Shown here piece by piece: positions 1 to 35,997 of a DNA stretch of 35,997 nucleotides. Position 1 is the stretch's first letter. Each line of letters opens with the position of its first letter. Below the pieces are notes generated by a model that made no database searches, had not been told where the DNA came from, and saw only the letters and a program-made list of their open reading frames with translations. The stretch comes from a virus (Duplodnaviria; Caudoviricetes): positions 1 through 35,997 of IMG/VR virus record IMGVR_UViG_3300025018_000324; one strand, 5' to 3'. The position numbers and the translations under genes were made by a program.

Positions 1-144
1 TGATGTTAACGCTTGCAAGCGGTAGTACCACCGCCCCTCCACGAGCGTCACAGGCTCACGGAGTCTGCCGTTGTGGTCGAGTAGAGCAAGCAGCTCATCG
101 CAGGTGTAGACCACGCGGCCCGCCTTTCGGTTGTTAGTGTTCAT
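1..144 (-). CDS. N-terminal part of a repeat (LRR-like) protein, runs off the window start
   Basis: Not in the ORF track. ATG at 144 with AAGGAGG 11 nt upstream; 48 open codons MNTNNRKAG...YRLQALTS to position 1. The end is in register with the 20-aa repeat of 35534-35995. Confidence 0.65.
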   Translation of the reverse strand, partial: MNTNNRKAGRVVYTCDELLALLDHNGRLREPVTLVEGRWYYRLQALTS

Positions 145-188
145 GGTGTCTCATGCCTCCTTGGTGTTAGCAGCAGAACGTAAGATTC

Positions 189-1136
189 TCACACTCTCTC
201 GTAGGCCCCTGCGAAGCCCCTTGCTGGGTCTCCGTAGGCATCCACGAGGCCTTCTTCGCGGGCCCAAGCCTGGAAGGCCGTCACCTGCTCGGGGTTGCCC
301 GAGCAGGTAAACTTCTTCCGGTTGTCAGGCACTCGAAAGGGCCCAGCGACGTAGCCAATACCGGACCTCGTACCGGCTTCCGGCAGCTCTGGCCATGCGG
401 GTTTTCGCCGCATGTCTGCCAGCCCTGCGAACAGGACCGGCGCCGCTCGGAGCGCTTGCGTAGTCTGCTCTATGTCGGCCATAACGGCCGACACAGGGCG
501 GTGCTGGAACACGGCGCGCTCGGTCGCGCGCCATGCCCCGAGCCCCTCTGGGTCCACGCAGGGGCATAGCCCCTGGTAGGCCGACCCCAGGCAGTGGTCG
601 GCCGCCGCCGTGTAGAGCACTCGCTGCTCGTCGAAGTCCCGTACCCACTCGGGAGGGATCGAGCGGGCCCACTGACCGCTTTTACCTGAAGGCCATGGTA
701 CCAGTCCTGTAACCATCTCTCCTGAGTCCGGATCCATGCTCGACCCGCCCCAGTCAAGCTCGATCCCAGCCTCCCCCCCGTCGGAGTAGAACACAGCGGC
801 GCCGAGCGCCGCGAGCACCTGGCCCACCGACGAGGCCGCGAAGAACCGATCAGGACCCTGGCCGAAGCCCGGATCCCCCGGACGGTGGTGATCGATCACC
901 ACCACCTCCTGGTCGATTGGGAGGGGGCTCGAAAACATGCACTCTACGAGTGCGAGCGGCGCGCCATTTAGCGGGGGCAGCCTATCCGCACTCGCGTTAT
1001 AGGCGTTGCCTGGGTGGACCCGGACGCCATCTTGGTCGAGTGCATATGCGTACTGACAACCAGCGGTTGCCAGCATGCTTTCGATTAGTTTCATTTCGGG
1101 GTCTGGGGCCCCGAGGATCCATTTACTTTTCCTCAT
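189..1136 (-). CDS. DHH-superfamily phosphoesterase-like protein (NrN-like)
   Basis: 315 aa with ordered motifs ILGAPDPEM, LVEC, VIDHH, SSVGQV, AAAD and C-terminal YGDPARGFAGAY. Confidence 0.6.
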   Translation of the reverse strand: MRKSKWILGAPDPEMKLIESMLATAGCQYAYALDQDGVRVHPGNAYNASADRLPPLNGAPLALVECMFSSPLPIDQEVVVIDHHRPGDPGFGQGPDRFFAASSVGQVLAALGAAVFYSDGGEAGIELDWGGSSMDPDSGEMVTGLVPWPSGKSGQWARSIPPEWVRDFDEQRVLYTAAADHCLGSAYQGLCPCVDPEGLGAWRATERAVFQHRPVSAVMADIEQTTQALRAAPVLFAGLADMRRKPAWPELPEAGTRSGIGYVAGPFRVPDNRKKFTCSGNPEQVTAFQAWAREEGLVDAYGDPARGFAGAYERV

Positions 1137-1139
1137 GCC

Positions 1140-2090
1140 CTAGAGCAAATCCTCCCCGGCCTCAATTGCGCTGGCCAGATCGTCAACTTCAATGGCGCTT
1201 AGGACGTCAATCTGTAATTTTCGCATGTGTAACGCGAGTCGCCGCAGAAACGCAACGTCCGCTAAAGTGCACGCCTTCTTTGTGGCCTCAGCCTTGGCCT
1301 CAGTGTCAGCTTGCGCCGACTTGCGCCGTTCCTCCTCTTCGCGGATCGAGGCCGCCTCGCGTTCCGCGGCATCCCGCTCGGCCTTGGCCTGCGCGGCTGC
1401 AGCTTGTTCCGCTGCGACGCGTGCGCGCAATGCCTCTTCCTCCTTTGCGAGTTCGGCGCGGCGCTTGGCAACCTCAGCTTCAACGAGTGCGCGGAGCCGG
1501 TCGGCTTCCTGTTTTGCGGCTTCACGCTCGGCCTCGAACGCAGCGCGCTCGGCTTCGATCTTCCGCTGCTCCTCGACGCGGGCCTGCCGGTCGGCTTCCT
1601 GTTTTGCGGCATTCAGCTCGGCCTCGAGGCGCCGCTCCTCGGCCAGCGCAGTCTGGCGCTCGAGCACGGCCACAAACTCGGCATCACTCATGTTCTTGAC
1701 GGTTTCAGGACTAAGCATGCTGAAGATGCCCAATTCGGTGAGAGCTGCCATGCGCTTGTCGAGTAGCTCCTTTTCACGCCGTGCGAGCTCCTCCGCTACC
1801 TTCTGCTCTTCGGCGATGAGGTGGGACTCAATGGGCTCGAGCATCCCAAACAGACGCTTTGCCTCCTCGTCCACGCGGCGGCAATACTCAAGGGCCTCAA
1901 CCTTTAACTCCTTGCGCCGCTTTTCGATGGTCACCCGCAGGGCCTTGACCTGTAGGCGGGACTCGCGAACGAGCGCTAATGCACTCCTGTCTTCTGGGCC
2001 GTTTGTGTGGAGCAGCAGGAACTGCTCGGACAGCGAGCGAATGGTTGCGTCGGCTACGTTGTAGGCGATCGGCGCTTGTGCCTGATTCAT
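1140..2090 (-). CDS. Coiled-coil phage protein of unknown function
   Basis: 316 aa, E/A/R/K-rich helical; IEKRRKELK...RVDEEAKRL...LEPIESHL segment; AAKQEADR occurs twice. Confidence 0.8.
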   Translation of the reverse strand: MNQAQAPIAYNVADATIRSLSEQFLLLHTNGPEDRSALALVRESRLQVKALRVTIEKRRKELKVEALEYCRRVDEEAKRLFGMLEPIESHLIAEEQKVAEELARREKELLDKRMAALTELGIFSMLSPETVKNMSDAEFVAVLERQTALAEERRLEAELNAAKQEADRQARVEEQRKIEAERAAFEAEREAAKQEADRLRALVEAEVAKRRAELAKEEEALRARVAAEQAAAAQAKAERDAAEREAASIREEEERRKSAQADTEAKAEATKKACTLADVAFLRRLALHMRKLQIDVLSAIEVDDLASAIEAGEDLL

Positions 2091-2110
2091 GTGGTGTGGT
2101 GGTTGGATGG

Positions 2111-2134
2111 GGCGCCGAGGAATCTCTCGGCGCC
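2111..2134 (-). promoter_or_regulatory. Leader hairpin (9-bp stem)
   Basis: ggcgccgag-N6-ctcggcgcc, 20 nt upstream of the ATG at 2090; no U-tract. Confidence 0.5.
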
Positions 2135-2165
2135 TGTGGTTAGTGGAATCGGTTAAAACTGCCGT

Positions 2166-2510
2166 CTACAGCGGCGTAAAGGTCAGCCGGATGCCCGCGC
2201 TTTTCCGGGAGCACCGTTCCTGCCTGGCGGTGAACCTAACGATGTGGCTGGGGCTGTCGTTCTCGAGCCTGCCGATGCGCTGTAGCGCATCGAGGGGAAC
2301 CTTGCAGCAGCTGCAAGCGTTGTCCCAGTCCATCGCATTGGCCGACAGCACGGTGAACTCGAGTTCGCACGGCGTGGGGATGTGCGCCACCCCCAGCCCA
2401 AGGAACCTCATTTCCCATGAGTACCGAACCTGGGCATAGGACCTGTAGTGCATGGTCTTCAGCTCGTTTAGGCCCGGCGGACGGCCCATGTCTCGGACCT
2501 CGAGGGTCAC
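2166..2510 (-). CDS. rusA: RusA-like Holliday junction resolvase
   Basis: PPGLN...DWDNACSCCKVPLDALQRIGRLENDS matches the RusA DxDN...K...DAL...G...D pattern. GTG at 2510 with AGGA upstream is preferred over the longer ORF start. Confidence 0.75.
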   Translation of the reverse strand: MTLEVRDMGRPPGLNELKTMHYRSYAQVRYSWEMRFLGLGVAHIPTPCELEFTVLSANAMDWDNACSCCKVPLDALQRIGRLENDSPSHIVRFTARQERCSRKSAGIRLTFTPL

Positions 2511-2587
2511 TCCACTTCCTTTAGCTGACGCTTGCCCAAGGATGTGGTCGGGGCGCGGGGCACCCAGGAGCGATGCCCCGCCTTCGG

Positions 2588-2716
2588 TCAGGTCAGCGTC
2601 GAGCCCACGGTCCCGTTGTCGAGACCCGTGCTCATCGCGCTCGTCGGGCGGCAGCTCGCAAGAGCTGCCGCCACCATCAGGGCCAGTGCAAGCACCAGCA
2701 ACTTCGTGCCCTTCAT
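2588..2716 (-). CDS. Small predicted lipoprotein (42 aa)
   Basis: GGAGG 6 nt before ATG; MKGTKLLVLALALMVAAALAS-C signal with lipobox LASC; G/C-ending codons favour this frame. Confidence 0.55.
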   Translation of the reverse strand: MKGTKLLVLALALMVAAALASCRPTSAMSTGLDNGTVGSTLT

Positions 2717-2785
2717 GTCGGGCCTCCGGGGTAACACCCTGAGCACCATGCCCAGGGGTGTGTTGAACCAGGTCGTCATAGCCAC

Positions 2786-3091
2786 TCATTGCTTGGCCCT
2801 CCGCCCGTCGGGGTCCACCTCGTACACTTGCGCTCCACCGCAGACCGTGCACTCAGCCATATCGATGGAGCAGGCTTTGTCTGCGTCCTCGTCACCGTAG
2901 ACGCAGAATCCGTCATGAATCCCGTCGATATAATCGGCCGCAGTGACGGCGCCGCCCTCGTGGGTCGCGCAGTAGGGCGCCTCTCCGCTCTCGTCGCAGA
3001 CCTCGCAGTTTACCAGGTTCGGACTCCGGTGGTCGTCACGTGGTTGCCGGTCGTCATAGGCCTGCTGCGCGGAAGCATATCCGTCGCTCAT
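2786..3091 (-). CDS. Small Cys-rich zinc-finger-like protein
   Basis: CEVCDESG and CTVCGG motifs; ATGA overlap with the upstream stop at 3088. Confidence 0.65.
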   Translation of the reverse strand: MSDGYASAQQAYDDRQPRDDHRSPNLVNCEVCDESGEAPYCATHEGGAVTAADYIDGIHDGFCVYGDEDADKACSIDMAECTVCGGAQVYEVDPDGRRAKQ

Positions 3092-3534
3092 GTCGTCATC
3101 CCTGTGTTCGTGGTTGTGGCGTCCTCGGTCTCGGTCGAGCATACTCCCGGGCAGTGGTGGCTGATCCTGGTATTGTCCAAAAACTTGCGACCTGCAGGAG
3201 CTACGACGTGATTGCGCGCCCGGTCTGATCCGGTGCGCCGGACTAGACCACGATTCACTAGGGCGATCAGATGCTCGAACACCGTGGCCGGTGACCGATC
3301 TAGGCTTTTGCTTAGTTCGGCGACAGTTGGTGGCACGCCGCCGGAGAGCCTTGTGGCGGAGTCGAGTTCTCGCAACACGGCGAGACTCCTGGGGGAGGGT
3401 GGCTTGCCCCGGAGAAGTTGGCGACCCTCGAGTTGGGCGAGGGCGCGAACGAGTTCTTTCCGCGTCGTTTTGTTCCCGCGGCCACGTAGCATTCGCTTGA
3501 GGAGCCGTCGTGCGAGTTGGTTGCTTCCGCTCAT
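3088..3534 (-). CDS. LexA-type winged-HTH DNA-binding protein without peptidase domain
   Basis: SPRSLAVL...GVPPTVAELS...SPATVFEHLIALVNRGLVRR...RAR resembles the LexA N-domain; ATGA coupling at 3531-3534. Confidence 0.75.
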   Translation of the reverse strand: MSGSNQLARRLLKRMLRGRGNKTTRKELVRALAQLEGRQLLRGKPPSPRSLAVLRELDSATRLSGGVPPTVAELSKSLDRSPATVFEHLIALVNRGLVRRTGSDRARNHVVAPAGRKFLDNTRISHHCPGVCSTETEDATTTNTGMTT

Positions 3535-3758
3535 GATTTGGTTGAGGCCGGTGTTGGCCTGGTTCGTGCTAGATTGTAAATGCGGTCGTACTCTCGTGCC
3601 GCGACCGTGGCCAGCGTCGAGGCGTTCAGCACGTCGCCGCGCAGATCGTCGTCTGTAGGCCGTGACTCGGAGAGTCGGCATGCGCGCACGTAGTGGTAGA
3701 ACGACTGACGTAGTTTCTCCTCCGAGTCGCGGAGTAGCTTGTCGGGTCCGGAGCTCAT
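3531..3758 (-). CDS. Hypothetical protein (75 aa)
   Basis: Fills the gap between dnaB and the HTH gene with 4-nt overlaps on both sides. Confidence 0.7.
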   Translation of the reverse strand: MSSGPDKLLRDSEEKLRQSFYHYVRACRLSESRPTDDDLRGDVLNASTLATVAAREYDRIYNLARTRPTPASTKS

Positions 3759-5101
3759 TGATCCTCCCCCATAAGGCTAAGTGGTATCATCTCTGGATCT
3801 GGCGGGTCGAAGTCTGTCAGGTGGAAGCAGGCTCGGTCGAAAAGCAGTGGAAGCGTGCAGCGCCCCGTGCTCCCGTGTCGGTTCTTAGCCACGCTCCAGC
3901 GGAGCCCGCCATGGCCGGTGTGGTCGATCTCCTCCGTCCAGAGCATAATTACTTGATCTGCATCCTGCTCGAGCGCCCCCGAGTCGCGCAAGTGGTGGAG
4001 CCCCGGCTCGCCATCCACCCCAGCTCGAGACAGCTGCGAGAGAGCAATCACGTTGACGCGGAGCTCTCGCGCAAGAGACTTTAGCCCGCGGCTGATCGTA
4101 GACACCTCCTCGACGCGGCCACGCTTCGAGCTCGCCTGGTCGGACATGAGCTGCAGGTAGTCCACGACGATAAAATCAACCCCCCCCATGTCGCTCGATG
4201 CCCGTCTGGCCATCGACCCGAGTCGCCCAACGGAAGTCCCGTAATCCTCAAATATCTGCAGCTTCCATCCGCTCATGCGGCCCGCGGCTCCAACCATGTC
4301 GCGGCGATCAGCGGCGTCGAGGTAGCCGCTTCGAAGGTGGTAGCCACTCACGTGGGACTCGCGTGACAGGACGCGCTGAGCGATCTGCTCCGTGGACATC
4401 TCCATGCTCACGAAGAGGACCTTAGCGCCGCCGCTACATAGGTTCGCGGCCACGTTAAGGGCAAACACCGTTTTCCCCACACCAGGGCGGGCCGCAATCA
4501 GCGTGAGCTCACCGGGCCGGAGACCGGCGGTCATGTGGTCGATCGCGTGGTAGCCGATCTTCCAGCCTTTCTGCCGCTCGTGCTGCGGCCGATCAAGCGC
4601 GGTGAAGACCTCAGTCATCAGGTCTTCGATGGACCCGCCCACCGCCCCACCGAGAACCTGTCTGCCGACTGAGAATATGGCGGATTCCAGACCGGCCAGC
4701 AACGCGTCGAGCGCCGCGGACTTGTTGACGGACAGCCCACGCGCCTGCGAGAGACCGTCCTCGCAGACGGCCATGATGGCCCGACGCGTGCTATCACGGC
4801 GAATTATGCTCGCGTGGTGTGCGATGTGGGCCGTTGACGTAACGGCCGACATCAGCTCCATAATCCCGGACTCTCCGCCAAACCAGTCGAGCTTCCCGTC
4901 CGTTCGGAGCTGCGTGACGATGGAAACTATGTCGACCGGGGCCGGGTCACGGGCCAACTTGTAGACCGTCCCTACGAGCACACCGAGGCGTTTGTCGGGG
5001 AAGTCCTCCGGCCTAGCTATGGCCTCCACCGTGGCGGCTTTGCCAGGACACAGCAGAAGGGCGCCCACGAAGGCGCTCTGTGCCTCCTGCACCACGGTCA
5101 T
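3755..5101 (-). CDS. dnaB: Replicative DNA helicase DnaB
   Basis: Walker A AARPGVGKT, SMEMS, VVDYLQLM, ALSQLSR, LRDSGALEQDAD, AKNRHG; N-terminal DnaB domain present. Confidence 0.97.
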   Translation of the reverse strand: MTVVQEAQSAFVGALLLCPGKAATVEAIARPEDFPDKRLGVLVGTVYKLARDPAPVDIVSIVTQLRTDGKLDWFGGESGIMELMSAVTSTAHIAHHASIIRRDSTRRAIMAVCEDGLSQARGLSVNKSAALDALLAGLESAIFSVGRQVLGGAVGGSIEDLMTEVFTALDRPQHERQKGWKIGYHAIDHMTAGLRPGELTLIAARPGVGKTVFALNVAANLCSGGAKVLFVSMEMSTEQIAQRVLSRESHVSGYHLRSGYLDAADRRDMVGAAGRMSGWKLQIFEDYGTSVGRLGSMARRASSDMGGVDFIVVDYLQLMSDQASSKRGRVEEVSTISRGLKSLARELRVNVIALSQLSRAGVDGEPGLHHLRDSGALEQDADQVIMLWTEEIDHTGHGGLRWSVAKNRHGSTGRCTLPLLFDRACFHLTDFDPPDPEMIPLSLMGEDQ

Positions 5102-5739
5102 TCGGGAGCCCCTAGGCCGACACGCCCGAGGAAATTAGCGAGGTACTGCGCGTAATCAACCGCGGCGTTGCCCCCTCGCACGATGCAGAGCCCCGGAATC
5201 AGCCGCTCACCCGGACGGAGAGCGTTCGTTTGTGGCCGTTTACGGCCTTTCTCTTTTCTCTTATTCCCAATAGAGGAAGGTTTGCGCCACTGATGCGACA
5301 TTGCCTTCACCAGACCCTCGCGGCACTTTGCCACGACGGCCTTGATCGTCACCCCCTCCCCGCTGAGACAGCGGCCATCCTCGTCTAGGACCCCTCCCGG
5401 GCACCGGAAGGCCCCGCGGGAAAACTCGTGGGGGATGGCGAGCCTCCGGGTTCCGCCGCCGTTCCAGCGCGCCCAGAGGCTTGCCCTGGCGGTCGTGAGC
5501 AGACCGGCCCGCACGAGTGCCTTTTCCCACCTCTGGATTGTCCGGGTCGTGACAGCGAAGCGCTCGGCGAGATCCGACTGCAAGACCCAGGTATACCGAC
5601 GGTCCTTCCCGCAGGCCCGGACCAACTCCTCGAAGAGGAGGCGCGCGCCGAACGGGACTCGGAGTTCCCGCATTGCGTCGGCAAAAACCGATGATTGGTA
5701 GAACGCGCGGGAGTTTCTGGTACTATAGGCATCAGACAT
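5098..5739 (-). CDS. Winged-HTH protein, probable replication initiator
   Basis: QSDLAERFAVTTRTIQRWEKALVRAGLL HTH directly upstream of dnaB. Start at ATG 5739 or GTG 5865. Confidence 0.7.
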   Translation of the reverse strand: MSDAYSTRNSRAFYQSSVFADAMRELRVPFGARLLFEELVRACGKDRRYTWVLQSDLAERFAVTTRTIQRWEKALVRAGLLTTARASLWARWNGGGTRRLAIPHEFSRGAFRCPGGVLDEDGRCLSGEGVTIKAVVAKCREGLVKAMSHQWRKPSSIGNKRKEKGRKRPQTNALRPGERLIPGLCIVRGGNAAVDYAQYLANFLGRVGLGAPE

Positions 5740-5861
5740 GGTTGTTCTGTGGTTGGGCAACCGGTTTATGGCAGGCACCTCACACAGCGCACGTGACGTG
5801 CCTGCCGACTTATTCACTCGGTGGCCGACCGCCGACCGCCGAGGCAGCCCCTGGCTTTTAC

Positions 5862-6596
5862 TCACAGGGTTGCCTCGGTAGGGTAGAGACCGGCAAATGG
5901 GTTGCCCTCGTCCTCGACCTCGACCTCGACCTCGACGGGGGCTTCGACGCTGACCGAGAACTGCGCGTCCTCGGCCTCGACGGGGTCCAGCCTTTGGGTA
6001 GAGCCGCGCAGGATTGCGTCGACGGTCGCGGTGGCTTCCGCCGAGGCGGAAGCCGGGTAGTGGGCCATGTCCTGCAGTTCTTCCACGGAAAGCATTCCCA
6101 TGGTGACTTCGGGACAGGACAGCCGGATGAGGAAGGCTGCTGCCCGGTAGGCCAGCATGAGCGCTGGGGTCTTCTGGTAGGCGTCGTTCGAGGTCCAGCC
6201 CGCATTTTTAGCAAGCTCCATCGACACGGGAATGGATTCGACGATGCCTCCGTCTTCGGCCAGTTTTGCCCAGGCGGTCACGGTGAGCGCATTTCCAGTG
6301 CCCTCGTAACGAAACCGGATCGGCCCACGAAAGACGCCTGATCGGTTCGCGAGGGCGATCAGGAATTTGGACGAATACCCCGGAGTCCCTTTAACCACGA
6401 ACACGTTCTGGAGTGCGCTCTGTGGGTCGCACCCAAGGGTTTCTGCCTGGTGTAGGACTATGGCGATGTCCGCTGGTTTCCCGCGGAACTGCTTCGGGCA
6501 TAGGTCGGAGGTCGACAGAGCCTTAGCGAGGCCCCACCGGTCGGCCTTTTTCCGCTCGTAGAGCGTTACGTCCGGCTGTTCTTTCTTGGCGTCCAT
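5862..6596 (-). CDS. recT: RecT/Red-beta-like single-strand annealing protein
   Basis: SDLCPKQFRGKPADI...LGCDPQSALQNVFVVKGTP...MLAYRAAAF, acidic tail, adjacent to an exonuclease; GAGG before ATG 6596. Confidence 0.8.
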   Translation of the reverse strand: MDAKKEQPDVTLYERKKADRWGLAKALSTSDLCPKQFRGKPADIAIVLHQAETLGCDPQSALQNVFVVKGTPGYSSKFLIALANRSGVFRGPIRFRYEGTGNALTVTAWAKLAEDGGIVESIPVSMELAKNAGWTSNDAYQKTPALMLAYRAAAFLIRLSCPEVTMGMLSVEELQDMAHYPASASAEATATVDAILRGSTQRLDPVEAEDAQFSVSVEAPVEVEVEVEDEGNPFAGLYPTEATL

Positions 6597-6597
6597 G

Positions 6598-7419
6598 TTA
6601 TTCCTCGGTAAGTGCCCACATGGGCAGGGAAACAGTCTCGATACCACGCCCTGAGTATCCCGGCCACTCGCCGGAATCGAGGCATTGGCGGTAGGTTTTG
6701 GCAGCTCGAAGGATTTCGAGCTCGCCATGGTGGACGGCGACGTCGTCGAGCTTGATCACTCGCACGAACTCGGCCTTGTTCTCGGAGCGCATCATCTCGT
6801 CCGATGTCTCGACGACAACGAACAGAAACGCTTTGGGCTCGAGCCCCGCCGCGGCGGCAGCTCGGAGGTAGAAGGCCGCTTGGCGGTGATAGCTCAGTTT
6901 GGGCACGCTCCGGTGGAACTCCCAGGCGTTACGGCTCGTTTTCAGATCCACCGCGATCCCGGCATTTGCGAACACGTCTAGGCGAGCTTTCGCGGGACAC
7001 CCGTCGAGGTCGAATAAGATGGTGAGCTCTCGACGGCCTCGAAGCAGTCCCGATTCGGCCAGCTGCCTGTTGGTGAGGACCGCGATTGCGGCCCCGTCGG
7101 CCAGGCGCCGCTCGTCCGCGTTCAGCACTAGCGCCCCAGGTTTCATTTCTCCGGTGAACCGCGCCCAGGCCGCCTTGCCGGCGGTGGTACGCCTGTCGAC
7201 CACGGGGGCAACCGGGAGCATTGCCGCCACCTTTTCTGGCTCCAGCACCAGCATGTGGACGGCGGTACCGACCCTCATGGCTGAGCTCTGCTCGCCCCAC
7301 TCGTGAGCCCGGAGGTGGGCAGGCGTCTTCCCGAGTAGTACCGCCGCTTGGGAGTTGGATAATCCCGGGAGCGCGAGGTACTCCGCAAAGGGCATGTTTT
7401 CAATGATTTTGGATCTCAT
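6598..7419 (-). CDS. PD-(D/E)xK exonuclease, RecE/exonuclease VIII-like (DUF3799-type)
   Basis: EYLALPGLSNS, GTAVHMLVLEP, KARLD, VDLKT, YHRQAAFY, WPGY. Confidence 0.9.
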   Translation of the reverse strand: MRSKIIENMPFAEYLALPGLSNSQAAVLLGKTPAHLRAHEWGEQSSAMRVGTAVHMLVLEPEKVAAMLPVAPVVDRRTTAGKAAWARFTGEMKPGALVLNADERRLADGAAIAVLTNRQLAESGLLRGRRELTILFDLDGCPAKARLDVFANAGIAVDLKTSRNAWEFHRSVPKLSYHRQAAFYLRAAAAAGLEPKAFLFVVVETSDEMMRSENKAEFVRVIKLDDVAVHHGELEILRAAKTYRQCLDSGEWPGYSGRGIETVSLPMWALTEE

Positions 7420-7434
7420 GTGGTGTTTCTGTTG

Positions 7435-7497
7435 AAAAAAGCGGCAAGGGGGCCTCGGAAAAGGACGCGGCAACCCCCTCGCCAAACCCTTGCCGCG
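7435..7497 (-). terminator. Terminator/attenuator-like structure
   Basis: Minus strand GCGGCAAGGG...CCCTTGCCGC followed by T6, with alternative internal pairings. Confidence 0.6.
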
Positions 7498-7515
7498 CCC
7501 GACGGGTGGGCTGGG

Positions 7516-7713
7516 TTAGAGGCGCTTACGCGGCTCGTTGATCCCCTCGATGGTGCAGTTGGCCGCAACCATCGTTGCAAGGCCGAGGAAAATACAGCAG
7601 AGGCCGGCCATGATGGCGCCGGCGCACACGGCTACGGAGACACCATCAGAGGCCCGACAGGCGAGCACAAGGCCGACGAGAAACACGACGGCGAGGGCGG
7701 CCAGCAGCTTCAC
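7516..7713 (-). CDS. Small two-TM membrane protein
   Basis: 65 aa with two hydrophobic stretches; GGAGG upstream; GTGA overlap with the previous stop. Confidence 0.65.
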   Translation of the reverse strand: MKLLAALAVVFLVGLVLACRASDGVSVAVCAGAIMAGLCCIFLGLATMVAANCTIEGINEPRKRL

Positions 7714-7883
7714 TGTGCCGCCTCCAGGTAGACCTCGAGTCCACAGGGCTGGTCTGGCGCGGCTGCAAAGTACGCTCGCACCTCGTCGGCAACCCCGGTA
7801 GCTGGCTGAAAAACGGCGTAGAGCAGGCCATCTCCGGGGTCCAGACCTACCTCCAGTAGCCGGTATCCCGTCAACGCGGACAA
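7710..7883 (-). CDS. Hypothetical small protein (start uncertain)
   Basis: Protein-like 3' end of ORF 7710-8324 (LTGYRLLEVGLDPGDGLLYAVF...); stop coupled to the next gene. Confidence 0.4.
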   Translation of the reverse strand: MSALTGYRLLEVGLDPGDGLLYAVFQPATGVADEVRAYFAAAPDQPCGLEVYLEAAQ

Positions 7884-7953
7884 TGCGACGACAGCAATCG
7901 ACCGGCGAGGTTCGCCCCGCTTAGGCGTCGCATGTAGCCTAGCGGTGGAAAGG

Positions 7954-8586
7954 TTATTTAGCCTCACGGTCAACTGCCTCCTCAGGCGCGAGCGCCTGTT
8001 CGACGTACACGCCGCTCCAATATACGCCGGAACCGTCCCGGTCGGAATCTCCTGACCATTCGAGGACGAGCCCAGCGGCGGCGAACCGGGACGCAGTGCC
8101 TTCCCCCCAGACGCGATCGAGGGCGTCCAATACGTCCTCCTCCTCCTCGTCGAGGCTATCCTCAACACCGAAGTAGACGTAGGTGCCGTGGTTCTCCATC
8201 TTCGGCGCGTCGTCGCCGAGCAGCCGCCGGACTGCGTCGGCGACGGGCTCGGGCGCGGGCGCGGGATCGGGCACGGGATCGGGCACGGCCGTCGGTATGG
8301 GCGCGGGCGCGCCCGCCCGCACAACGCGTACGCCTAGCCAGTAGGCGCCCGTGCGCCCGTCGCGGTCGGAGTCCCCGGACCATTCGACCGCGAGCCCCGC
8401 GGCCGTGAACCGGTCCGCCGTACCGGCGCCCCAGACGCAATCGAGGGCGTCCAATACGTCCGGACCGGACTGGTTGTCCTGGACGCGGAAATAGGCCGCG
8501 TCCTCCGGGTAGTCGCCGAGTAGCGCGTCGTCGCCGAGCAGCCGCCGGATCGTGTCGCTTATCGTGGTCGTGGTCTCGTTCGTCAT
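7954..8586 (-). CDS. Acidic early protein with two tandem duplicated domains
   Basis: RRLLGDDA...DVLDALDxVWGxGTAxRFxAAGLxxEWSGDSDRDG occurs twice, joined by a Pro/Ala linker; ATG at 8586. Confidence 0.8.
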   Translation of the reverse strand: MTNETTTTISDTIRRLLGDDALLGDYPEDAAYFRVQDNQSGPDVLDALDCVWGAGTADRFTAAGLAVEWSGDSDRDGRTGAYWLGVRVVRAGAPAPIPTAVPDPVPDPAPAPEPVADAVRRLLGDDAPKMENHGTYVYFGVEDSLDEEEEDVLDALDRVWGEGTASRFAAAGLVLEWSGDSDRDGSGVYWSGVYVEQALAPEEAVDREAK

Positions 8587-8628
8587 GTCGTGGTTGTGGT
8601 TGTGGTCGGCACCAGCGCCGACAGCCAC

Positions 8629-8657
8629 ATCTTCGGCGGAACGCGGCGGAAGCGCAA
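8629..8657 (-). promoter_or_regulatory. Sigma70-like leftward promoter candidate
   Basis: TTGCGC-N17-GAAGAT on the minus strand; TTCCGCCG repeated with a 10-bp period across the spacer. Confidence 0.45.
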
Positions 8658-8841
8658 GCACCAAATGCCGCCCGAACGCAGAAAGGCCGAGGCAGCGGCG
8701 TATCTGCGGCAACTGTAAGGGGTTACGTCTGCCGAGAAAAGTCGGGAAGTTATTAAGCCGTGAGCGCGGGCGGGTTACGGACCTCGGTCAGCTGATGGCA
8801 CCTGCAGAGCGCGCAACTCATGGTAGAATAGGGACTTGCGT

Positions 8842-9207
8842 TCAGTTGGGACGGCCTGGAGACCACCCGGCGAGAGCCACCTCGACCGCGTCGCGGAAGC
8901 GCGGTGCTGTGCGCAGTCCGGCCTCAAGCTCGACGCCCAGCTCGAGCGCCCCGCCCAGCGACAAGCGCCGGTCGACGCGCGCCAGGCAAGCGGCGTGCGA
9001 AGGCCGCCGCTCGAGGAACAGGCTCGCTGCCGCGAGGCCCGCGCACAGGATCCCGACGGGCCAGGCCGCGAGCTGCGTCTCGGCGCGCGCAACGAGCACG
9101 GTGAACAGGCCCGCGAGCAAGCCGCCGAGGCTCGCCTCCACGAGCGCGTTCGCCAACCCGCCGCAGTACGCGAGCCGCGCGGCGCCGCTCGGGCTCAGTT
9201 GGCGCAC
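8842..9207 (-). pseudogene. 5' fragment of a bacterial-type membrane protein gene
   Basis: GAGGA-N7-GTG start, two TM segments, then RRPS...ARVDRRLSLGGAL; nearly all codons end in G/C; stop abuts the 29-bp site ending at 8840. Confidence 0.55.
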
Positions 9208-9217
9208 CAGGGCGTCC

Positions 9218-9312
9218 TCAACGCACGGTCGCTTCGAGCGAGCGGTCCGGCTCGTGTAGCGACGCGCGGAAGCGCTCCGGCAGCGACTCGAGCTGCACGT
9301 GCGGCGGAGGCG
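9218..9312 (-). pseudogene. 3' fragment of an upstream gene without its start
   Basis: APPPHVQLESLPERFRASLHEPDRSLEATVR-TGA with G/C-ending codons; the frame is closed upstream by a TAG inside the 9311-9339 site. Confidence 0.45.
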
Positions 9313-9357
9313 CAAGTGCCTATATATCAAGTGGTTATGTCACGGACGGCCTCTCCG

Positions 9358-9436
9358 CCTTTACTAAATCCTTAGCTAAATCCTTAGCTAAATCTAAGTT
9401 AACGGGGCCCGATTAGTAAAGGGTTTAGTAAAGGGT
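9358..9436. repeat. Two opposed AT-rich 12-bp tandem arrays
   Basis: (ctaaatccttag)x2 plus ctaaatctaag at 9364-9398; (ttagtaaagggt)x2 at 9413-9436; the units match about 9/12 as reverse complements. Confidence 0.85.
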
Positions 9437-9680
9437 TCGGACGACTGCCGGTCGCTCGCGCGATCCTCGCGGCTGCGGTCTATGCCGATGTTAGGTATCT
9501 TATCGCAATGGGCTAAGACGCCTAAACTGTGACCGGGGTCCCGGTCGTCGATAGCACCGATTACGATCTGCCGCAGCGCCGCCGAACCGTCCTGCTCGCA
9601 TCCATCGCCTAGCCGAAGTCCGAGAAGTGTCACTTGCACTAGTGCTAGTGTCTGATAATGTGCTCCAATAAGAGGCACTC

Positions 9681-11072
9681 ATGGCTCACACCTACGACTT
9701 ATCGAGCACGCTCTCGCCCAACTGGACCGCGATGTGGGACTTGGCTTGGTTCGGTATCCCCGCCAGCGACCCAAAGCCTGGGCCCGACTGGACTTACGGT
9801 AATTGGGACCTCGCAAATTTCCACGAGATTAACCCCGCGGCCTATCCGGGAGTTCCGTACGCCACGCACGACCCGGCCGCCTGTGCGCCCTACTACGGCT
9901 TCGGCGACCACCGCCAAGTCGCGAGCTACTTTCGCCCGCTCGTTGGGCCATATAGCTCCAGCGGCCAAGACGCGGAAAGTCGGGCGAAGCGCGACCTCGA
10001 CCTCGGGCTGTTGCGGCGTCCGTCGGACCCGCGAGCGCGACTCGACGCGTGGATTGTGGAATTGTACACACTCGGCTACACGTCGCAGGCCGGTTATGCG
10101 GGCGGAGACGCCGGTTACGACGCCGTTGCCGACTACCGGTGGCAGGCGCTGCTGTCGGCCATGGAGCGCGCTACAGCGGCAGGGCTGGCGTCCTGCGTGA
10201 CCGGCGCGCTAAATTTGAGCCGCGTATTTACCCCGCCCCAGACCCCGGACCCATATCCGACGACACAGGCCAAGATGGATGCCACCGTCGCCGACTTAGT
10301 CACCATCGTGGACGCTATCCTGGCGTCTGCCGCTGGCCTCCAGATCGGCGGTCGCGCGCTACTCTTCGTTTGGGTCGGAAACGACGTACTCTTTACTCCA
10401 GGGGAACTCGAGACCGTGTTCGAGACTGCCCGCACAACCACGGGGAATGATTTCTATGTGGTCGCGCCAAGAAACTCGGGCGCGACCACTCCGTTGGCGT
10501 GGGCCGATGGAATTCACCCATGGTCCGGAAACAACGAATGGGCGCTCGCTGTCGGGGGCACCACGCGGGCGAAATCCGCGGACTGGACCGCGAAGAGGCA
10601 CGACCCCTGGATCGCGCAATTGCCGAGCTACCCAGGGCGCGTCGTTATGGGGAGTGTGTTCCCAGGTTTCGAGGACTGGGCGAAAGGGTTTGGCCAAGAT
10701 TTGGACCGCGATATTCCTAGGTCCGAAGATTTGGTGCTCGGCCAATTTGATTACTTCGGCTCTGCCCCTGGCCTGACTGGCTATCTCGCCCAGACCTGGA
10801 ACGACTTCCCCGAGGGCTCGAATTGGGAGCCACACGTCTCGACGGCCGCCGCAGAGCTCGAGTGGTTGACGGAAGGGTTTGCGTCCCTGTTTGGCGAGTC
10901 CTTGGTGGCGGCCGAGACCGCTGCTTTACGCGCCATGTGGACGGGCTACGGCGTGTCGCGTGCTTGCACGCCGCCGAGCGCTGGCGGTGGCCCCAGGATG
11001 TCGGGCCCGCGGCACGAATCCCCCACCTACTCGCCGTCCAGAAATTCACCGACCGCTGGCAAAGGAGCCTAA
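9681..11072 (+). CDS. Glycoside hydrolase, GH71/GH99-like TIM barrel
   Basis: RPLVGPYSS, GRALLFVW, SVFPGFED, QTWNDFPEGSNWEP motifs; GAGG RBS. Confidence 0.7.
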   Translation: MAHTYDLSSTLSPNWTAMWDLAWFGIPASDPKPGPDWTYGNWDLANFHEINPAAYPGVPYATHDPAACAPYYGFGDHRQVASYFRPLVGPYSSSGQDAESRAKRDLDLGLLRRPSDPRARLDAWIVELYTLGYTSQAGYAGGDAGYDAVADYRWQALLSAMERATAAGLASCVTGALNLSRVFTPPQTPDPYPTTQAKMDATVADLVTIVDAILASAAGLQIGGRALLFVWVGNDVLFTPGELETVFETARTTTGNDFYVVAPRNSGATTPLAWADGIHPWSGNNEWALAVGGTTRAKSADWTAKRHDPWIAQLPSYPGRVVMGSVFPGFEDWAKGFGQDLDRDIPRSEDLVLGQFDYFGSAPGLTGYLAQTWNDFPEGSNWEPHVSTAAAELEWLTEGFASLFGESLVAAETAALRAMWTGYGVSRACTPPSAGGGPRMSGPRHESPTYSPSRNSPTAGKGA

Positions 11073-27882: not shown

Positions 27883-30800
27883 ATGGTTCTCGACGACACG
27901 GCGCTGGATCACATCCTCACGGAATCCGACATCGCTAAGATCCGGGCTGAGTCCCTGGCGAAGCGCAACATCGGGCTTGATGAATATGGGGACGGTGCAC
28001 CCGATCTAGTCCAGAACGGTCCACCTGCGCGCATTCAGACTAGCGTAGATGCGGAGTGGGCCTCGCTCATGTCTGGAGTCGATGGGATACGGCCAACCAA
28101 GTTTGACCCTAAAGGGTTCCGCACGGCCTCCGAGAGAACAGCGGAGCGTCGAGCTAACATGGGCGCGCTAGAGTCTTCGGCGGCCAATGTTTACAATTTT
28201 GCGCAACAGCTGACCACAGGGGTCGCGGAGGTGGCAGCCGCCGTGCCTGAGCTCGCAGGACAAGTGGCCGAATTTGCTACGGGATCCAGCAAGCCCTCAG
28301 CGGCGATAATGGAGTCAGCTCTAAAGAAGGATCGCGAAGGCAAGCCGCTCACCGGCGAAGAAGCTCAAGCCGTGGCCTGGGAGCCAAACTTCTTGCGATC
28401 GCTCAGCTCGAGCATCCGAAAAATCGCGGAGTACGACGACCGAATGCTAGACGGGGACGGACAGCCGCTTCAGGCCCAATCCTTTTTAGCCGGTGCATTC
28501 TCACAGGGCCTTGGTTCCGCGGCGGGCTTCATGGGTGGTGGTGCCGCGCTAAAAGCCGCAGGTGTCGGGAGCGACTTGCTCGCAATCGGCGGCCTCGGGG
28601 CTATCGCGGAAGGGCAGTCCATGTACCGAGAGGCCGAGGATGCGGGGGCGACTCCGCAACAGAAGGCTATCGCCATGCTGATCGGGATGGGGGCAGGATC
28701 GACAGAAGTCGTTGGTGCATCCGGCATTATTATGCGGCTCAACAAGGCGGCAGGCGGCTCCCTGATGAGGTCGTTATCAGACCCCGGCCTGATCCCTAAG
28801 ATCATGGCTGAAGGTGGCGAAGAGGCTGGACAGGAGTTCGTCCAGCAGCTGGTTGAGGATGCGGGGCGGCAGTATCTCGCCAAGTACGGCGAAAACAAGA
28901 CGTGGAACGAGATGACGGCTATGGCGTTCCAGCAGGGCGCTCTTCCAGCCTTCCTTGTGGGTGGCCTACTCGGCGCCGGCGCCGCGGTAGATCTGGCGAG
29001 TACTCAAAAACAGGCAACAAAGAAGGTTGCCGCGGACATCGGTGAGACTGGAGCCCGGGATCTTGGTCAGGCTATCGAAGCAGAGCCGCAACAGTCCGTT
29101 CCGAAGAAGACCCCAGAGCAGGCAATCGAGTTCTTCCGCGAAGGCAACATCGACACGCTCGAGAAGCAGCTGAAAGCCACGAAGACCCCCGATGGTCGGT
29201 CCGAGCTCGAGGCGAGGATCCAGGCTGTGCGCGACATGAAGTTTCGCACCCTTGGCGAGCAGGTTGAGGGGGTCGGAGTCCACCCCGAGGAGGCCGCCCT
29301 AGTCGGTACCCTGACGACGCTCCAGGAGGCGGGCGCGAAGACTCCAGACGTTCTTGTGGCCGACTCGGCTAACCCGCTTCCCATGCAGGGTATGAGCCTC
29401 GGTGGGCAGATCGTGATTGACGGGTCTCAAGCCGGTGATGTCCTTCGCGGCGTGATTTTCCACGAGGCGTTCCATCATGCGGTTCCCGTGGGCTCCAAGC
29501 CGATGAAGGCCCTAGTGCTGACCGCGAGGGAACAGTTTCCGGAGTTGATGCAGCGTCTGCGCGTCGAGTATCTGCGCCGCTACACCAGGCAAACGGATGA
29601 GCCCCCGTTCGCCGAGTACGAGGGGGAGGAGCGTCTTGCCCGCGAGTTCGAGGAGGCGTTTGCTATCGGCGCGGAGTTGATGCCGGACCTGATCCAGGAG
29701 GTACTTGGCGACTCCGAGACGTTCAGCGAGGAGAACTTCGCCAAGAACTCCGGCCTGCGTGGGCTCCTACAGGCGATCCGCGACTTTGTGGTTTCAGCCC
29801 TAAACAAGTTGCCAAAAGTCAACCTCACTTCTCGGGTCGACAAGGAACGTGCAGCGCTCGTCAGGGAGCTATCCGGAGACCTGTCGACGTTCGATCCAAA
29901 GCAGCTACAGGCCTTCGCAGAGGCGCTGTCAGCGGCATATCGCAGTGCCGAGCCTGTCGCGTTTGCCAAGGCGGTGCAGAAGATCACGGTGGGCGACGTG
30001 TTGGCTAGAGGGCAGACGGACTTCTACAGCGCCGAGCGCGGGGAGGCGTTCTTCGACGAACAGGCGGCGATACGCGAAGAGGCAATCCAAGAGTTGATAA
30101 GCATCGGGACGCCACGCGCCGACGCCGAGAGGAAGGTCGATGTGATGTACTCGGTTGCGGACTCTGACGCAAATTCGACGATCTTCTTGAGCTCAAGGTT
30201 CGGCGCCCGTGTCGAGTCGGTGCTGGCCGATAATTTGATCCATTTGCGGAACCTCCAGGCGACGCTCGAAGTGCCAGAGGGGGGCAACTGGGATAGAGAG
30301 GACACGCGTTCATCTGGCCTGCTGATGCACGCGGTGAACGAGTTCCAAGAGCAGTTTGTTACCCCGCTCGTCCGAGCCATGTCGGACGGGAACATCTCGA
30401 TTGAGGCGGTGCACCTATACCTCGCGGCTCTGACATCGCTCGAGCGCAACGAAACGCTCATCAAGCGCGATCAAGCAGCCGACCCAAAAGACCGCAAGCA
30501 CTTCGGCAGGGAAGTCAACCCGGGCGCATGGCTGCGAGAGTCCGAGGCAAACGCGATCATCAAGGCCTCGCTCAGCGGCGAGAAGGCCAAGTACTTCAGG
30601 CGGGTCCGTAGGCTGAACGCGGCCATGCACGAGTCCAAGCTAAAGCTCATCGAAAGGTCCGGGCTCGAGCCGCAGGAGGTCATCGACAAAACGCGAGCCT
30701 TAGGATGGAAAAACTACTCCCCGATGAAGACTCTCATGCGAGGGCGGCCAGGCATCTCCCGTGGTCGTGGTTTCTCTATCAACGGAAAAACGGTCGCCCG

Positions 30801-35533: not shown

Positions 35534-35995
35534 TCACGATGCGGTGCGTATGGCGGTTAGGCGATCCTGCATTGGTTCCGACAAGTCGCGCAACTTGCAA
35601 CCTTCGCCCATCACTAAGTCCTCGATATCCGCAACGGAACTTAGGCCATGGAGTGCGCAGCCCTCGCCCATCGTTACGCGCTTGATTGCACGCACCGAAG
35701 AAAGGCCCCAAAGCTGGCAACCAGCAGCTAGCGTTAGGTCCTGGAGAACCGGTAATGCCGACAAACCGGAAAACCAACAGCGCTCAGCCATCGTCAGGCC
35801 CTCGAGCGACGTCAGCGACGATAGACCCAATAGAGTGCAGCCATTACCCATCGTTACGCCCTCAAGCGCCGTCACCGAAGAAAGTCCGGAGAGTGTGCAT
35901 CGCTCGGCAAGCGTCAGGCCCTCGAGCGTAGTCACCGACGACAAGTTATAAAGCTCGCATCCAGCAGCCAGCGTAACGTCATGGAGGTTATTCAC
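35534..35995 (-). CDS. C-terminal part of a 20-aa repeat (LRR-like) protein
   Basis: Seven 60-bp repeats, consensus VxxLEGLT(L/M)xxxCxLxGLSS; open at the window end. Confidence 0.8.
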   Translation of the reverse strand: MNNLHDVTLAAGCELYNLSSVTTLEGLTLAERCTLSGLSSVTALEGVTMGNGCTLLGLSSLTSLEGLTMAERCWFSGLSALPVLQDLTLAAGCQLWGLSSVRAIKRVTMGEGCALHGLSSVADIEDLVMGEGCKLRDLSEPMQDRLTAIRTAS

Positions 35996-35997
35996 CG

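What the first reader, a model, noticed from the sequence alone, without database searches (positions are those of the whole stretch)
189..1136. Phage-encoded NrN-like DHH phosphodiesterase: candidate eraser of immune signalling nucleotides
Seen: motif order LGxxDxEMxxIxxxL / LVE / IDHH / SSxxQVxxxLG / AAxD / Gly-aromatic C-terminus. Established: NrN is a DHH-family enzyme encoded next to CorA in some type III CRISPR loci (e.g. Bacteroides fragilis) and degrades the SAM-AMP messenger. From memory, not from a search, NrN proteins show a similar motif series (LGGHDLEM, IDHH, SxLEQV, AAND). Inference: a stand-alone copy among phage accessory genes could be an anti-type III CRISPR or other anti-defence phosphodiesterase.
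Basis: partly seen in the sequence, partly recalled or inferred. Interest (0 to 1): 0.75.

Follow-up and report, generated by a model that had tools for sequence, protein, structure and literature searches.

The report
NrN-related phosphodiesterase of phages and plasmids
This phage gene encodes an enzyme whose predicted structure is closest to NrN, the CRISPR enzyme that destroys the alarm molecule SAM-AMP, but it belongs to a separate, unnamed family carried by phages and large plasmids that likely cuts a different small nucleotide, probably to blunt host defences.

Summary
A 315-aa ORF (189-1136, minus strand) carries every motif listed. Its AlphaFold model is closest to B. fragilis NrN (Z 12.9; next 8.3). 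The NrN residues mutated in papers and crystal structures (E21, D85-H86-H87, D119) are kept as E14, D82-H83-H84 and D180.

It is not NrN itself. It misses PADLOC's NrN model and falls in a separate clade of about 1,600 clusters. The clade occurs on phages, megaplasmids (including pQBR57) and scattered chromosomes. CorA or Cas10 lay in 0 of 107 family loci, against 37 of 41 NrN loci. Several NrN-invariant positions differ, and phage members carry a hypervariable insert.

Best reading (0.45): a counter-defence phosphodiesterase of mobile elements, acting on a short linear nucleotide or AMP conjugate. A SAM-AMP-specific anti-CRISPR is possible but weakly supported (0.12). Nucleotide salvage is the main rival (0.28). 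No activity was tested.

Viral DHH enzymes that degrade immune nucleotides are already in print; my literature searches found no paper on this clade. This scan noted the same family before on other DNA.

The parts
189..1136 (-). Gene for a 315-aa DHH/DHHA1 phosphodiesterase (P0001) of an unnamed NrN-related clade
1092..1115 (-). Motif I, L8-M15 (D12-x-E14), equal to NrN D19-x-E21
939..947 (-). Motif II, V64-E65-C66; E65 equals the NrN giEL glutamate, C66 is family-specific
885..893 (-). DHH motif D82-H83-H84, equal to NrN D85-H86-H87
834..884 (-). Family-specific loop after DHH (RPGDPGFG...): 16-17 aa in the family, 7-9 aa in NrN
621..800 (-). Hypervariable insert (about residues 113-172, low pLDDT at 122-152), long mainly in phage and metagenome members
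561..605 (-). Motif IV, A178-P192: D180 equals NrN D119, followed by family-specific H181, C182 and C191
201..236 (-). DHHA1-lobe motif YGDPARGFAGAY, counterpart of the NrN YGGG..GF.G hairpin; invariant R306
1140..2090 (-). Upstream gene of unknown function (316 aa, charged and Ala-rich); its stop is 3 nt before the DHH start codon, so the two are likely coupled
2166..7419 (-). Context: same-strand recombination and replication block (RecE-like, RecT, replication initiator, DnaB, RusA-like) that the DHH gene follows
1..144 (-). Downstream ORF running off the record end; it adjoins a multi-copy leucine-rich-repeat-like gene region also seen at 35534-35995

Best explanation
The gene encodes a protein with a predicted DHH/DHHA1 phosphodiesterase fold and a complete NrN-type catalytic set, belonging to a mobile-element clade distinct from NrN, and it likely hydrolyses a short linear nucleotide or AMP-conjugate alarm signal early in infection to blunt a host nucleotide-signalling defence that is probably not limited to SAM-AMP/CorA CRISPR. 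Shown here: the ORF, the conserved residues, homology to NrN, the separate clade, and the spread on phages and plasmids away from corA and cas10. Predicted: the fold. Inferred from DHH-family knowledge: metal ions held by D12, E14, E65, D82, H83 and D180 activate water, and the DHHA1 lobe (R306, Y301-G310) closes over a small substrate and cleaves its phosphodiester bond. Inferred from gene position: early expression with the replication block. Untested: the substrate and the counter-defence role.
For: Fold: model pLDDT 88.5. Foldseek top hit NrN 9lq9, E 1e-4. VIA Z 12.9, rmsd 4.0, 218 aligned, next PggH 8.3. An insert-free member gives Z 12.6, rmsd 4.4, 210 aligned, next 8.6. Profile-profile match to NrN: probability 98.1 and 98.9%. 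Catalytic residues are conserved in viral, Rhodanobacter-clade and CPR subsets. Mobile-element bias: 50 viral loci; 13 plasmid records; 1 of 151 sampled genomes of one carrier's family, that one being the carrier itself; viral and genome rows interleaved on the tree. No fixed partner gene: the largest recurring neighbour cluster was in 7 of the 95 loci. The closest enzyme degrades an immune signal and spares pApA and cOA (PMC10600005). Other viral DHH enzymes counter 3'3'-cGAMP: a mimivirus enzyme in vitro, a phage enzyme in a cell reporter with a poor control (bioRxiv 2026.07.21.739742). Phage members carry a 17-158-aa variable insert, compatible with conflict-driven change. One phage carries Csx16, a cA4 ring-nuclease family, 2.2 kb downstream. 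On two Pseudomonas megaplasmids the gene abuts a DUF4942 gene, one with a weak methyltransferase match.
Against: No activity data. Clustering with known anti-defence genes is not shown: the AcrIII-1 family was in 0 of 48 viral records and Csx16 in 1 of 48, with no base rate. Several neighbours point to nucleotide or DNA housekeeping instead: dUTPase, ribonucleotide reductase, uracil-DNA glycosylase, exonuclease and polymerase. Chromosomal copies in Rhodanobacteraceae and CPR bacteria sit among metabolic genes. The mimivirus DHH enzyme was dispensable in its own host, so in vitro breadth need not mean an anti-defence role. Host and expression of this phage are unknown.
Confidence: 0.45

Rival explanations
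1. Nucleotide salvage or clean-up enzyme. It works like a nanoRNase or deoxydinuclease (or pAp phosphatase), turning di- and oligonucleotides left by host DNA/RNA breakdown and recombination into mononucleotides for replication of the element.
For: In this phage it follows the RecE/RecT/DnaB/RusA block. Plasmid neighbours include dut, nrdAB, ung and an exonuclease (4 of 6 plasmid regions read). Genome neighbours include a dCMP-deaminase-like and a HIT gene. Other structural matches are PggH, RecJ, NrnA and a PAP phosphatase. Mobile-element-linked deoxydinucleases exist in another fold (PMC11706625 abstract).
Against: NrN is clearly closer than any nanoRNase (Z 12.9 versus 8.3 for PggH and 6.4 or less for Bacillus NrnA), and NrN does not cut pApA. 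The GGGH motif of NrnA-like enzymes (PMC9779919) is replaced by GDPARG. This rival partly overlaps the best explanation, because 5'-phosphorylated deoxydinucleotides activate ApeA (bioRxiv 2026.01.26.701840).
Confidence: 0.28
2. SAM-AMP-specific anti-CRISPR. [quoted passage not shown]
For: Closest solved relative is NrN, including its SAM-AMP and SAH-AMP complexes (Z 11.3-11.6). 22 of 37 columns that are at least 90% conserved in NrN keep the same commonest residue in the family, including R134, R138 and D180 (L142 numbering) beyond the metal ligands. A phage SAM-AMP lyase has been described as a candidate Acr (PMC12255297). Absence of corA near a phage gene is expected under this reading too.
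Against: 15 of the 37 columns differ, among them W37, L65, N112, D137 and G223; which of them touch SAM is unknown to me. The family is large (1,624 clusters), whereas CorA was found in 53 type III loci in a survey of complete genomes (PMC11229360). Chromosomal carriers mostly show no Cas10-like gene: strong matches in 4 of 44, 0 of the 14 CPR-sized genomes and 1 of the 16 in the Rhodanobacter clade, all incomplete MAGs. [quoted passage not shown] A phage with an NrN-proper gene exists (L236) and is a better candidate.
Confidence: 0.12
3. De-nucleotidylase. It removes an AMP/NMP adduct that a host toxin or nucleotidyltransferase puts on a macromolecule or metabolite, or turns over a signal made by the element itself.
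For: SAM-AMP is chemically an AMP adduct. Two non-CRISPR NrN-proper genes of CPR-like loci lie just upstream of nucleotidyltransferase-type genes (L133, L158). One carrier contig also encodes a minimal CRISPR polymerase 7 kb away (L058).
Against: No recurring nucleotidyltransferase or cyclase partner among the nearest neighbours scanned for the family loci. The two examples concern NrN-proper, not this clade.
Confidence: 0.1
4. Non-catalytic nucleotide sponge, or a metal- or redox-regulated binder built on the NrN scaffold.
For: Three cysteines and a histidine (C66, H181, C182, C191) next to metal ligands in sequence are near-invariant in the family and absent from NrN.
Against: All putative catalytic residues are conserved across the family, which argues for catalysis.
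Confidence: 0.05

Closest known systems
NrN, SAM-AMP phosphodiesterase of CorA-type type III CRISPR (B. fragilis; PDB 9LQ9, 9LQA, 9LQB, 9LQC; PMC10600005; PADLOC PDLC01149 DHH_CorA)
   Same: Compact DHH + DHHA1 fold (best structural match over residues 3-315). Same unusual D-x-E motif I and Glu motif II. DHH, motif IV Asp, S-S-x-x-Q helix and linker arginines are kept.
   Different: Separate clade on a long branch; 16% structural identity; no hit to the NrN model. Not beside corA or cas10. Has a 17-aa loop after DHH, HC..AAY.G.CP in place of ND.GYI, GDPARG in place of GGG, and a variable insert. Found mainly on mobile elements.
Viral DHH-DHHA1 phosphodiesterases that counter cGAMP (mimivirus Euk-DHH-1B/R106, phage Ph-DHH-3B; bioRxiv 10.64898/2026.07.21.739742; predicted for jumbo phages in PMC7824862)
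   Same: Virus-encoded DHH-fold enzyme proposed to destroy immune nucleotides.
   Different: Those were found with CdnP as query, and NrN is not mentioned in that text. This model matches other viral DHH structures only weakly (best E 1.5e-3, TM 0.36). I could not check whether this clade is in their supplementary tables.
AcrIIIB4, phage SAM-AMP lyase (PMC12255297)
   Different: PII-fold lyase with demonstrated SAM-AMP activity and close likeness to its CRISPR counterpart. P0001 is a distant hydrolase relative with no activity data.
NrnA / PggH / GdpP / CdnP-type DHH-DHHA1 dinucleases
   Same: Same superfamily and predicted metal-dependent chemistry on short substrates.
   Different: Lower structural scores (Z 4.7-8.6), no Pfam DHH or DHHA1 match, and no GGGH motif.

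Membership tests
DHH/DHHA1 phosphoesterase superfamily | N-terminal DHH lobe plus C-terminal DHHA1 lobe | tested here: met
   Model matches NrN, PggH, RecJ, Cdc45, NrnA and GdpP over residues 1-315; second member likewise
DHH/DHHA1 phosphoesterase superfamily | Acidic motifs I, II and IV plus the DHH motif | tested here: met
   D12/E14, E65, D82-H83-H84 and D180 conserved in 75-79 of 79 family rows and in all three subsets
DHH/DHHA1 phosphoesterase superfamily | Match to Pfam DHH (PF01368) or DHHA1 (PF02272) | tested here: not met
   No Pfam family at E 0.01. NrN-proper proteins also give none, so this does not exclude membership
DHH/DHHA1 phosphoesterase superfamily | Metal-dependent phosphoesterase activity | not testable with these tools
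   Needs purified protein
NrN (CRISPR-associated SAM-AMP phosphodiesterase) | Detectable homology to NrN | tested here: met
   hhalign 98.1-98.9%, E 7.8e-14 and 2.2e-17; family HMM hits 9lq9 at E 2.1e-4
NrN (CRISPR-associated SAM-AMP phosphodiesterase) | Residues mutated in NrN studies (E21, D85, H86, H87, D119) | tested here: met
   E14, D82, H83, H84, D180
NrN (CRISPR-associated SAM-AMP phosphodiesterase) | Falls within the NrN clade / scores on the NrN model | tested here: not met
   80 family rows and 56 NrN rows on opposite sides of one branch, SH-aLRT 100, quick unrooted tree. No PADLOC DHH_CorA hit at E 0.1 against 2.5e-75 for a true NrN
NrN (CRISPR-associated SAM-AMP phosphodiesterase) | Encoded next to or fused with corA in a type III CRISPR locus | tested here: not met
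   CorA 0 of 107 and Cas10 0 of 107 family loci (one short mCpol aside), against 37 of 41 NrN-motif loci of 5 kb or more with CorA and/or Cas10
NrN (CRISPR-associated SAM-AMP phosphodiesterase) | Conserved SAM-AMP binding pocket | tested here: inconclusive
   22 of 37 NrN-conserved columns kept, 15 changed. Coordinates and the structure paper were not available, so contacts could not be mapped
NrN (CRISPR-associated SAM-AMP phosphodiesterase) | Specific hydrolysis of SAM-AMP to SAM + AMP | not testable with these tools
   Biochemical assay needed
Viral signal-degrading anti-defence enzymes (AcrIII-1, Acb1, Apyc1, AcrIIIB4 kind) | Encoded by mobile elements as a stand-alone gene | tested here: met
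Viral signal-degrading anti-defence enzymes (AcrIII-1, Acb1, Apyc1, AcrIIIB4 kind) | Clustering with known anti-defence genes | tested here: inconclusive
   Csx16 in 1 of 48 records and PF08960 in 0 of 48, no base rate. DNA methyltransferases among the two nearest neighbours of 5 of 44 viral loci scanned
Viral signal-degrading anti-defence enzymes (AcrIII-1, Acb1, Apyc1, AcrIIIB4 kind) | Degrades an immune messenger and rescues infection | not testable with these tools
   Experiment needed
NrnA-type nanoRNase | GGGH motif in DHHA1 (PMC9779919) | tested here: not met
   The equivalent stretch reads YGDPARGFAG

The most novel reading that the evidence does not exclude
This clade is a widespread counter-defence enzyme of phages and megaplasmids against linear AMP-conjugate or dinucleotide alarm signals of the SAM-AMP kind. 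Its size (about 1,600 clusters at 50% identity, on small phages, jumbo phages and megaplasmids) would mean such signals are used by defence systems far beyond the rare CorA-type CRISPR loci. The variable insert in phage members would be a swappable module under arms-race selection, and the enzyme would be bait for finding an unknown messenger.
Probability: 0.2. Interest if true: 0.85.

Novelty: new variant of a known kind. Interest (0 to 1): 0.5.

Why it matters
NrN is so far known only as a CRISPR accessory enzyme for SAM-AMP, and its role in immunity is unexplained. A large, unannotated mobile-element relative with an intact active site is a direct candidate for a new class of signal-erasing anti-defence enzymes. 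Finding its substrate could reveal a nucleotide messenger not yet described. The family is testable now: a homologue lies on the laboratory megaplasmid pQBR57 (PQBR57_RS01895), and the published nrn-replacement assay reads out SAM-AMP turnover. If it proves to be a salvage dinuclease, it still names about 1,600 clusters of hypothetical proteins.

Tried and rejected
Pfam, PHROGs, NCBIfam and PADLOC gave no family for P0001. Single-sequence phmmer against the PDB gave nothing; only profiles reached NrN.

tblastn against 50,697 GenBank phage records found no member with three family queries and no NrN with two queries.

Motif scans for NrN in viral contigs gave two chance matches, L097 and L218. 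The alignment-based scan found one real gene, L236.

I looked for what fills this gene's slot in related phages. Only fragments of the same phage, or short records around the terminase, came back, so accessory status in this lineage is untested.

Idea that Rhodanobacter copies form a conserved stress regulon (hemerythrin and aminotransferase neighbours in 5 loci each): dropped. No shared upstream motif was visible by eye and synteny is loose.

No RNA holder was listed for the stretch. No sigma-70-like promoter was found in 1-9700. Neither says anything about expression.

The free-standing ORF resembling the insert (L058:9657-9986) had no other homologue at its own length or longer and no informative Atlas hit. 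It may be a remnant of another family gene and not a donor.

No complex prediction was run, because no binding is claimed.

Full report
Observation. The window is a 35,997-base virus record with terminase, DnaB, RecT, a RecE-like exonuclease, a RusA-like resolvase and an LPD38 protein. The gene follows a same-strand recombination and replication block and starts 3 nt after the stop of a 316-aa unknown gene. Its codon-position GC is like that of six other genes tested. A contig from another run covers it almost unchanged.

Family. No Pfam, PHROG or PADLOC model matches P0001, and no NCBIfam model matches it or recurs among its homologues. Yet 1,071 of 7,997 scored candidates were homologues. 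A profile of 120 sequences found 1,624 representatives at E 0.001 or better among 1.84 billion, 1,109 of them at 1e-30; the weakest may include true NrN. The best ESM Atlas clusters are unnamed, and the top two are mostly viral. DNA context came from 50 viral loci (55 of 135 pattern matches), 45 genome loci (45 of 503), a second viral scan (55 loci, mostly the same records, adding phages up to 402 kb) and 13 plasmid records, six of which I read. Some loci are near-duplicates, so counts overstate independence.

Fold. The AlphaFold model (pLDDT 88.5, pTM 0.84) matches NrN first by Foldseek (9lq9, E 1e-4, TM 0.48) and by VIA-align against 48,161 chains (Z 12.9, rmsd 4.0, 218 aligned; PggH next at 8.3). 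The ligand-bound NrN structures follow at Z 11.3-11.6. An insert-free member (pLDDT 97) gives the same order (Z 12.6, rmsd 4.4, 210 aligned; next 8.6). Sequence profiles agree: hhalign 98.1% and 98.9%, covering the DHH lobe and linker, and the broader family HMM finds NrN at E 2.1e-4.

Active site. I fetched true NrN proteins by a motif scan of metagenomes: 115 ORFs with the motif, 94 with DHH. One matches the PDB NrN sequence over its N-terminal part and gives D19, E21, D85, H86, H87 and D119. D85/H86/H87 is the published dead mutant (PMC10600005), and E21A and D119A are the crystallised ligand complexes (titles). P0001 has D12, E14, D82, H83, H84 and D180 at these places, plus E65 for the NrN motif II glutamate. 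Of 37 columns at least 90% conserved in 54 NrN rows, 22 keep the same commonest residue in 79 family rows and 15 differ. Caveats: the motif I columns are invariant in NrN by selection, two of the 22 are kept only by plurality, and Q141/G142 look shifted by one residue. The family adds a 16-17-aa loop after DHH (7-9 in NrN), C66, H181, C182, C191 and R306. The segment between the S-S-x-G-Q helix and motif IV is 17-23 aa in 45 of 55 measurable NrN, 16-34 in 6 of 6 plasmid members and 23-33 in 16 of 16 Rhodanobacter-clade members. It is 17-118 aa (median 61) in 37 of 41 viral loci and 17-158 (median 65) in 221 of 230 metagenomic proteins; P0001 has 71.

Membership. On a quick maximum-likelihood tree of 136 rows, all 56 NrN rows and all 80 family rows lie on opposite sides of one long branch (about 2.5 changes per column, SH-aLRT 100; unrooted). 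Fifteen of the 95 loci were left out because no full-length protein was called. Viral and genome rows are interleaved within the family. PADLOC's DHH_CorA model scores a true NrN at 2.5e-75, the pQBR57 member at 5.5e-6 and P0001 not at all. Six-frame searches of 107 family loci (1.64 Mb) found no CorA and no Cas10 apart from one short mCpol, while 37 of 41 NrN-motif loci of 5 kb or more had one or both. The profiles were built from those NrN loci and cover mainly the B. fragilis-type CorA, so the positive side is partly circular. The protein works like an NrN-type enzyme but is not a member of the CRISPR NrN family.

Distribution and neighbours. No partner gene recurs: the largest neighbour cluster was in 7 of 95 loci. 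Neighbour scans took up to two genes on each side: 148 proteins from 43 of the 45 genome loci, 150 from 44 of the 50 viral loci, and 133 in a follow-up Pfam scan. Viral neighbours were mostly unknown or replication, recombination and methyltransferase genes. Chromosomal copies in Rhodanobacteraceae and CPR bacteria sat among metabolic genes, but only 1 of 151 sampled genomes of one carrier's family had the gene, so it is not core. Among 44 carrier genomes, 6 had a Cas10-palm match over the cut-off: 4 strong (not checked one by one), one the mCpol, one borderline. None was in the 14 CPR-sized genomes. All are incomplete MAGs, and the model also rings in E. coli. Plasmid neighbours were a DUF4942 gene (2 of 6), dUTPase, ribonucleotide reductase, uracil-DNA glycosylase and an exonuclease. 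NrN-proper was found in one viral locus (1 of 15 pattern matches) against about 50 for this family; the patterns differ, so the ratio is rough. Known signal-degrading genes were rare in family-bearing viral records: Csx16 1 of 48, AcrIII-1 family 0 of 48 (47 family records plus L236; no control set).

Mechanism. Inferred from DHH-family chemistry: the acidic motifs and DHH bind divalent metal, the DHHA1 lobe closes on a small substrate, and a phosphodiester is hydrolysed. NrN cleaves SAM-AMP but not pApA or cOA (PMC10600005), so relatives can be narrow specialists, and the altered positions suggest a different substrate here. A stand-alone, intact, widely exchanged enzyme on phages and megaplasmids, with a fast-changing insert in phages, fits counter-defence best (0.45). 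Salvage of di- and oligonucleotides is the main rival (0.28); it blurs into counter-defence because deoxydinucleotides activate ApeA and tRNA-derived dinucleotides act as messengers. A SAM-AMP-specific anti-CRISPR is not excluded (0.12). CorA was in 53 type III loci in a complete-genome survey, most chromosomal carriers show no Cas10, and a phage with an NrN-proper gene (L236) is a closer candidate. De-nucleotidylation (0.10) and a non-catalytic role (0.05) remain.

Prior knowledge. DHH enzymes of jumbo phages were predicted to counter nucleotide signals (PMC7824862, passages). A 2026 preprint shows that a mimivirus DHH degrades 3'3'-cGAMP and other messengers and that a phage DHH blocks STING activation, while the mimivirus gene was dispensable in amoebae (10.64898/2026.07.21.739742: abstract, DHH passages and one methods section). 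It has no mention of NrN. Its supplements are closed, and its database includes megaphages, so overlap with this clade cannot be ruled out. Other papers seen: PMC10600005, PMC12255297, PMC11229360, PMC13294483, PMC9779919, PMC12409355, PMC13692257 and 10.64898/2026.01.26.701840 as passages; PMC11706625 as abstract; PMC8544851 and PMC11974786 as listings only. Seven searches listed no paper on a phage or plasmid NrN-related family, and none on the NrN structures; the library lacks most subscription papers. Acb1, Apyc1 and AcrIII-1 as signal-degrading enzymes are partly recalled; Acb1 appears and viral ring nucleases. Earlier notes of this scan describe the same family in other genomes, and the CPR fusion. 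I read them after forming my view (stated); they agree but are not independent evidence. Two further notes, on NrN-like domains in non-CRISPR defence loci, are unchecked leads for the novel case.

Verdict. Real gene, correct fold call, over-specific functional guess. It is a new variant of a known kind: an unnamed mobile-element clade related to NrN with an open substrate. Interest 0.5; the most novel reading has probability 0.2 and would merit 0.85.

Noticed in passing
L236:10007-10798 (IMG/VR record, 50 kb): An AT-rich phage carries an NrN-proper gene (NrN profile E 7.6e-52; PADLOC DHH_CorA E 4e-35) between its terminase and Gp157/ERF recombination genes, with no CorA or Cas10 in the locus. 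It is a better candidate for a SAM-AMP anti-CRISPR than the window's gene.
   Followed up: partly
L095:9245-10834; L082:8944-10849: CPR bacteria carry an NrN-proper domain fused to (529 aa) or directly upstream of a member of this family, near a TrmB-type regulator and a helicase, without cas genes.
   Followed up: partly
window 1-174 and 35534-35997: Both record ends lie in a multi-copy region of leucine-rich-repeat-like genes: contig depth is several times that of unique DNA and there are many variant contigs. The DHH gene is therefore probably followed by an array of variable repeat genes at which the assembly broke.
   Followed up: partly
L058:9657-9986: A free-standing 109-aa ORF just upstream of a family gene is homologous to the variable insert of P0003 and seven other members (E 1e-9 to 1e-21), and weakly to that of P0001.
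   Followed up: yes
P0001 versus P0003: Mosaic identity: 79/112 in the N-part, 33/60 in the insert and 127/139 in the C-part, suggesting recombination within the gene.
   Followed up: no
L058:17892-18410: A minimal CRISPR polymerase (mCpol, Pfam E 1e-16) on a phage-like contig, 7 kb from a family gene.
   Followed up: no
L011:5973-6620: Phage-encoded Csx16 (Cas_VVA1548) domain behind an N-terminal extension, 2.2 kb downstream of a family gene.
   Followed up: partly
L102, L115, L127, L136, L151: An NrN subgroup lies directly after RAMP-rich type III operons with no B. fragilis-type CorA detected in the fetched DNA; several contigs end near the gene.
   Followed up: no
L105, L133, L158: Stand-alone NrN-proper genes among housekeeping genes with no CRISPR; two lie just upstream of nucleotidyltransferase-type genes.
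   Followed up: partly
L026, L033, L038, L041, L045: Several viral members are split or interrupted in the called frames. Whether by introns, frameshifts or assembly error was not checked.
   Followed up: no
window 27883-32796: 1,637-aa protein with an LPD38 large-polyvalent-protein domain, probably injected with the DNA.
   Followed up: no
window 8033-8557, 35150-35331, 9358-9434: A 105-nt direct repeat 324 nt apart inside the 7954-8628 gene; 36-nt and 9-nt tandem repeats in the 419-aa gene; an AT-rich 22-nt inverted repeat at the switch between the leftward and rightward gene blocks.
   Followed up: no
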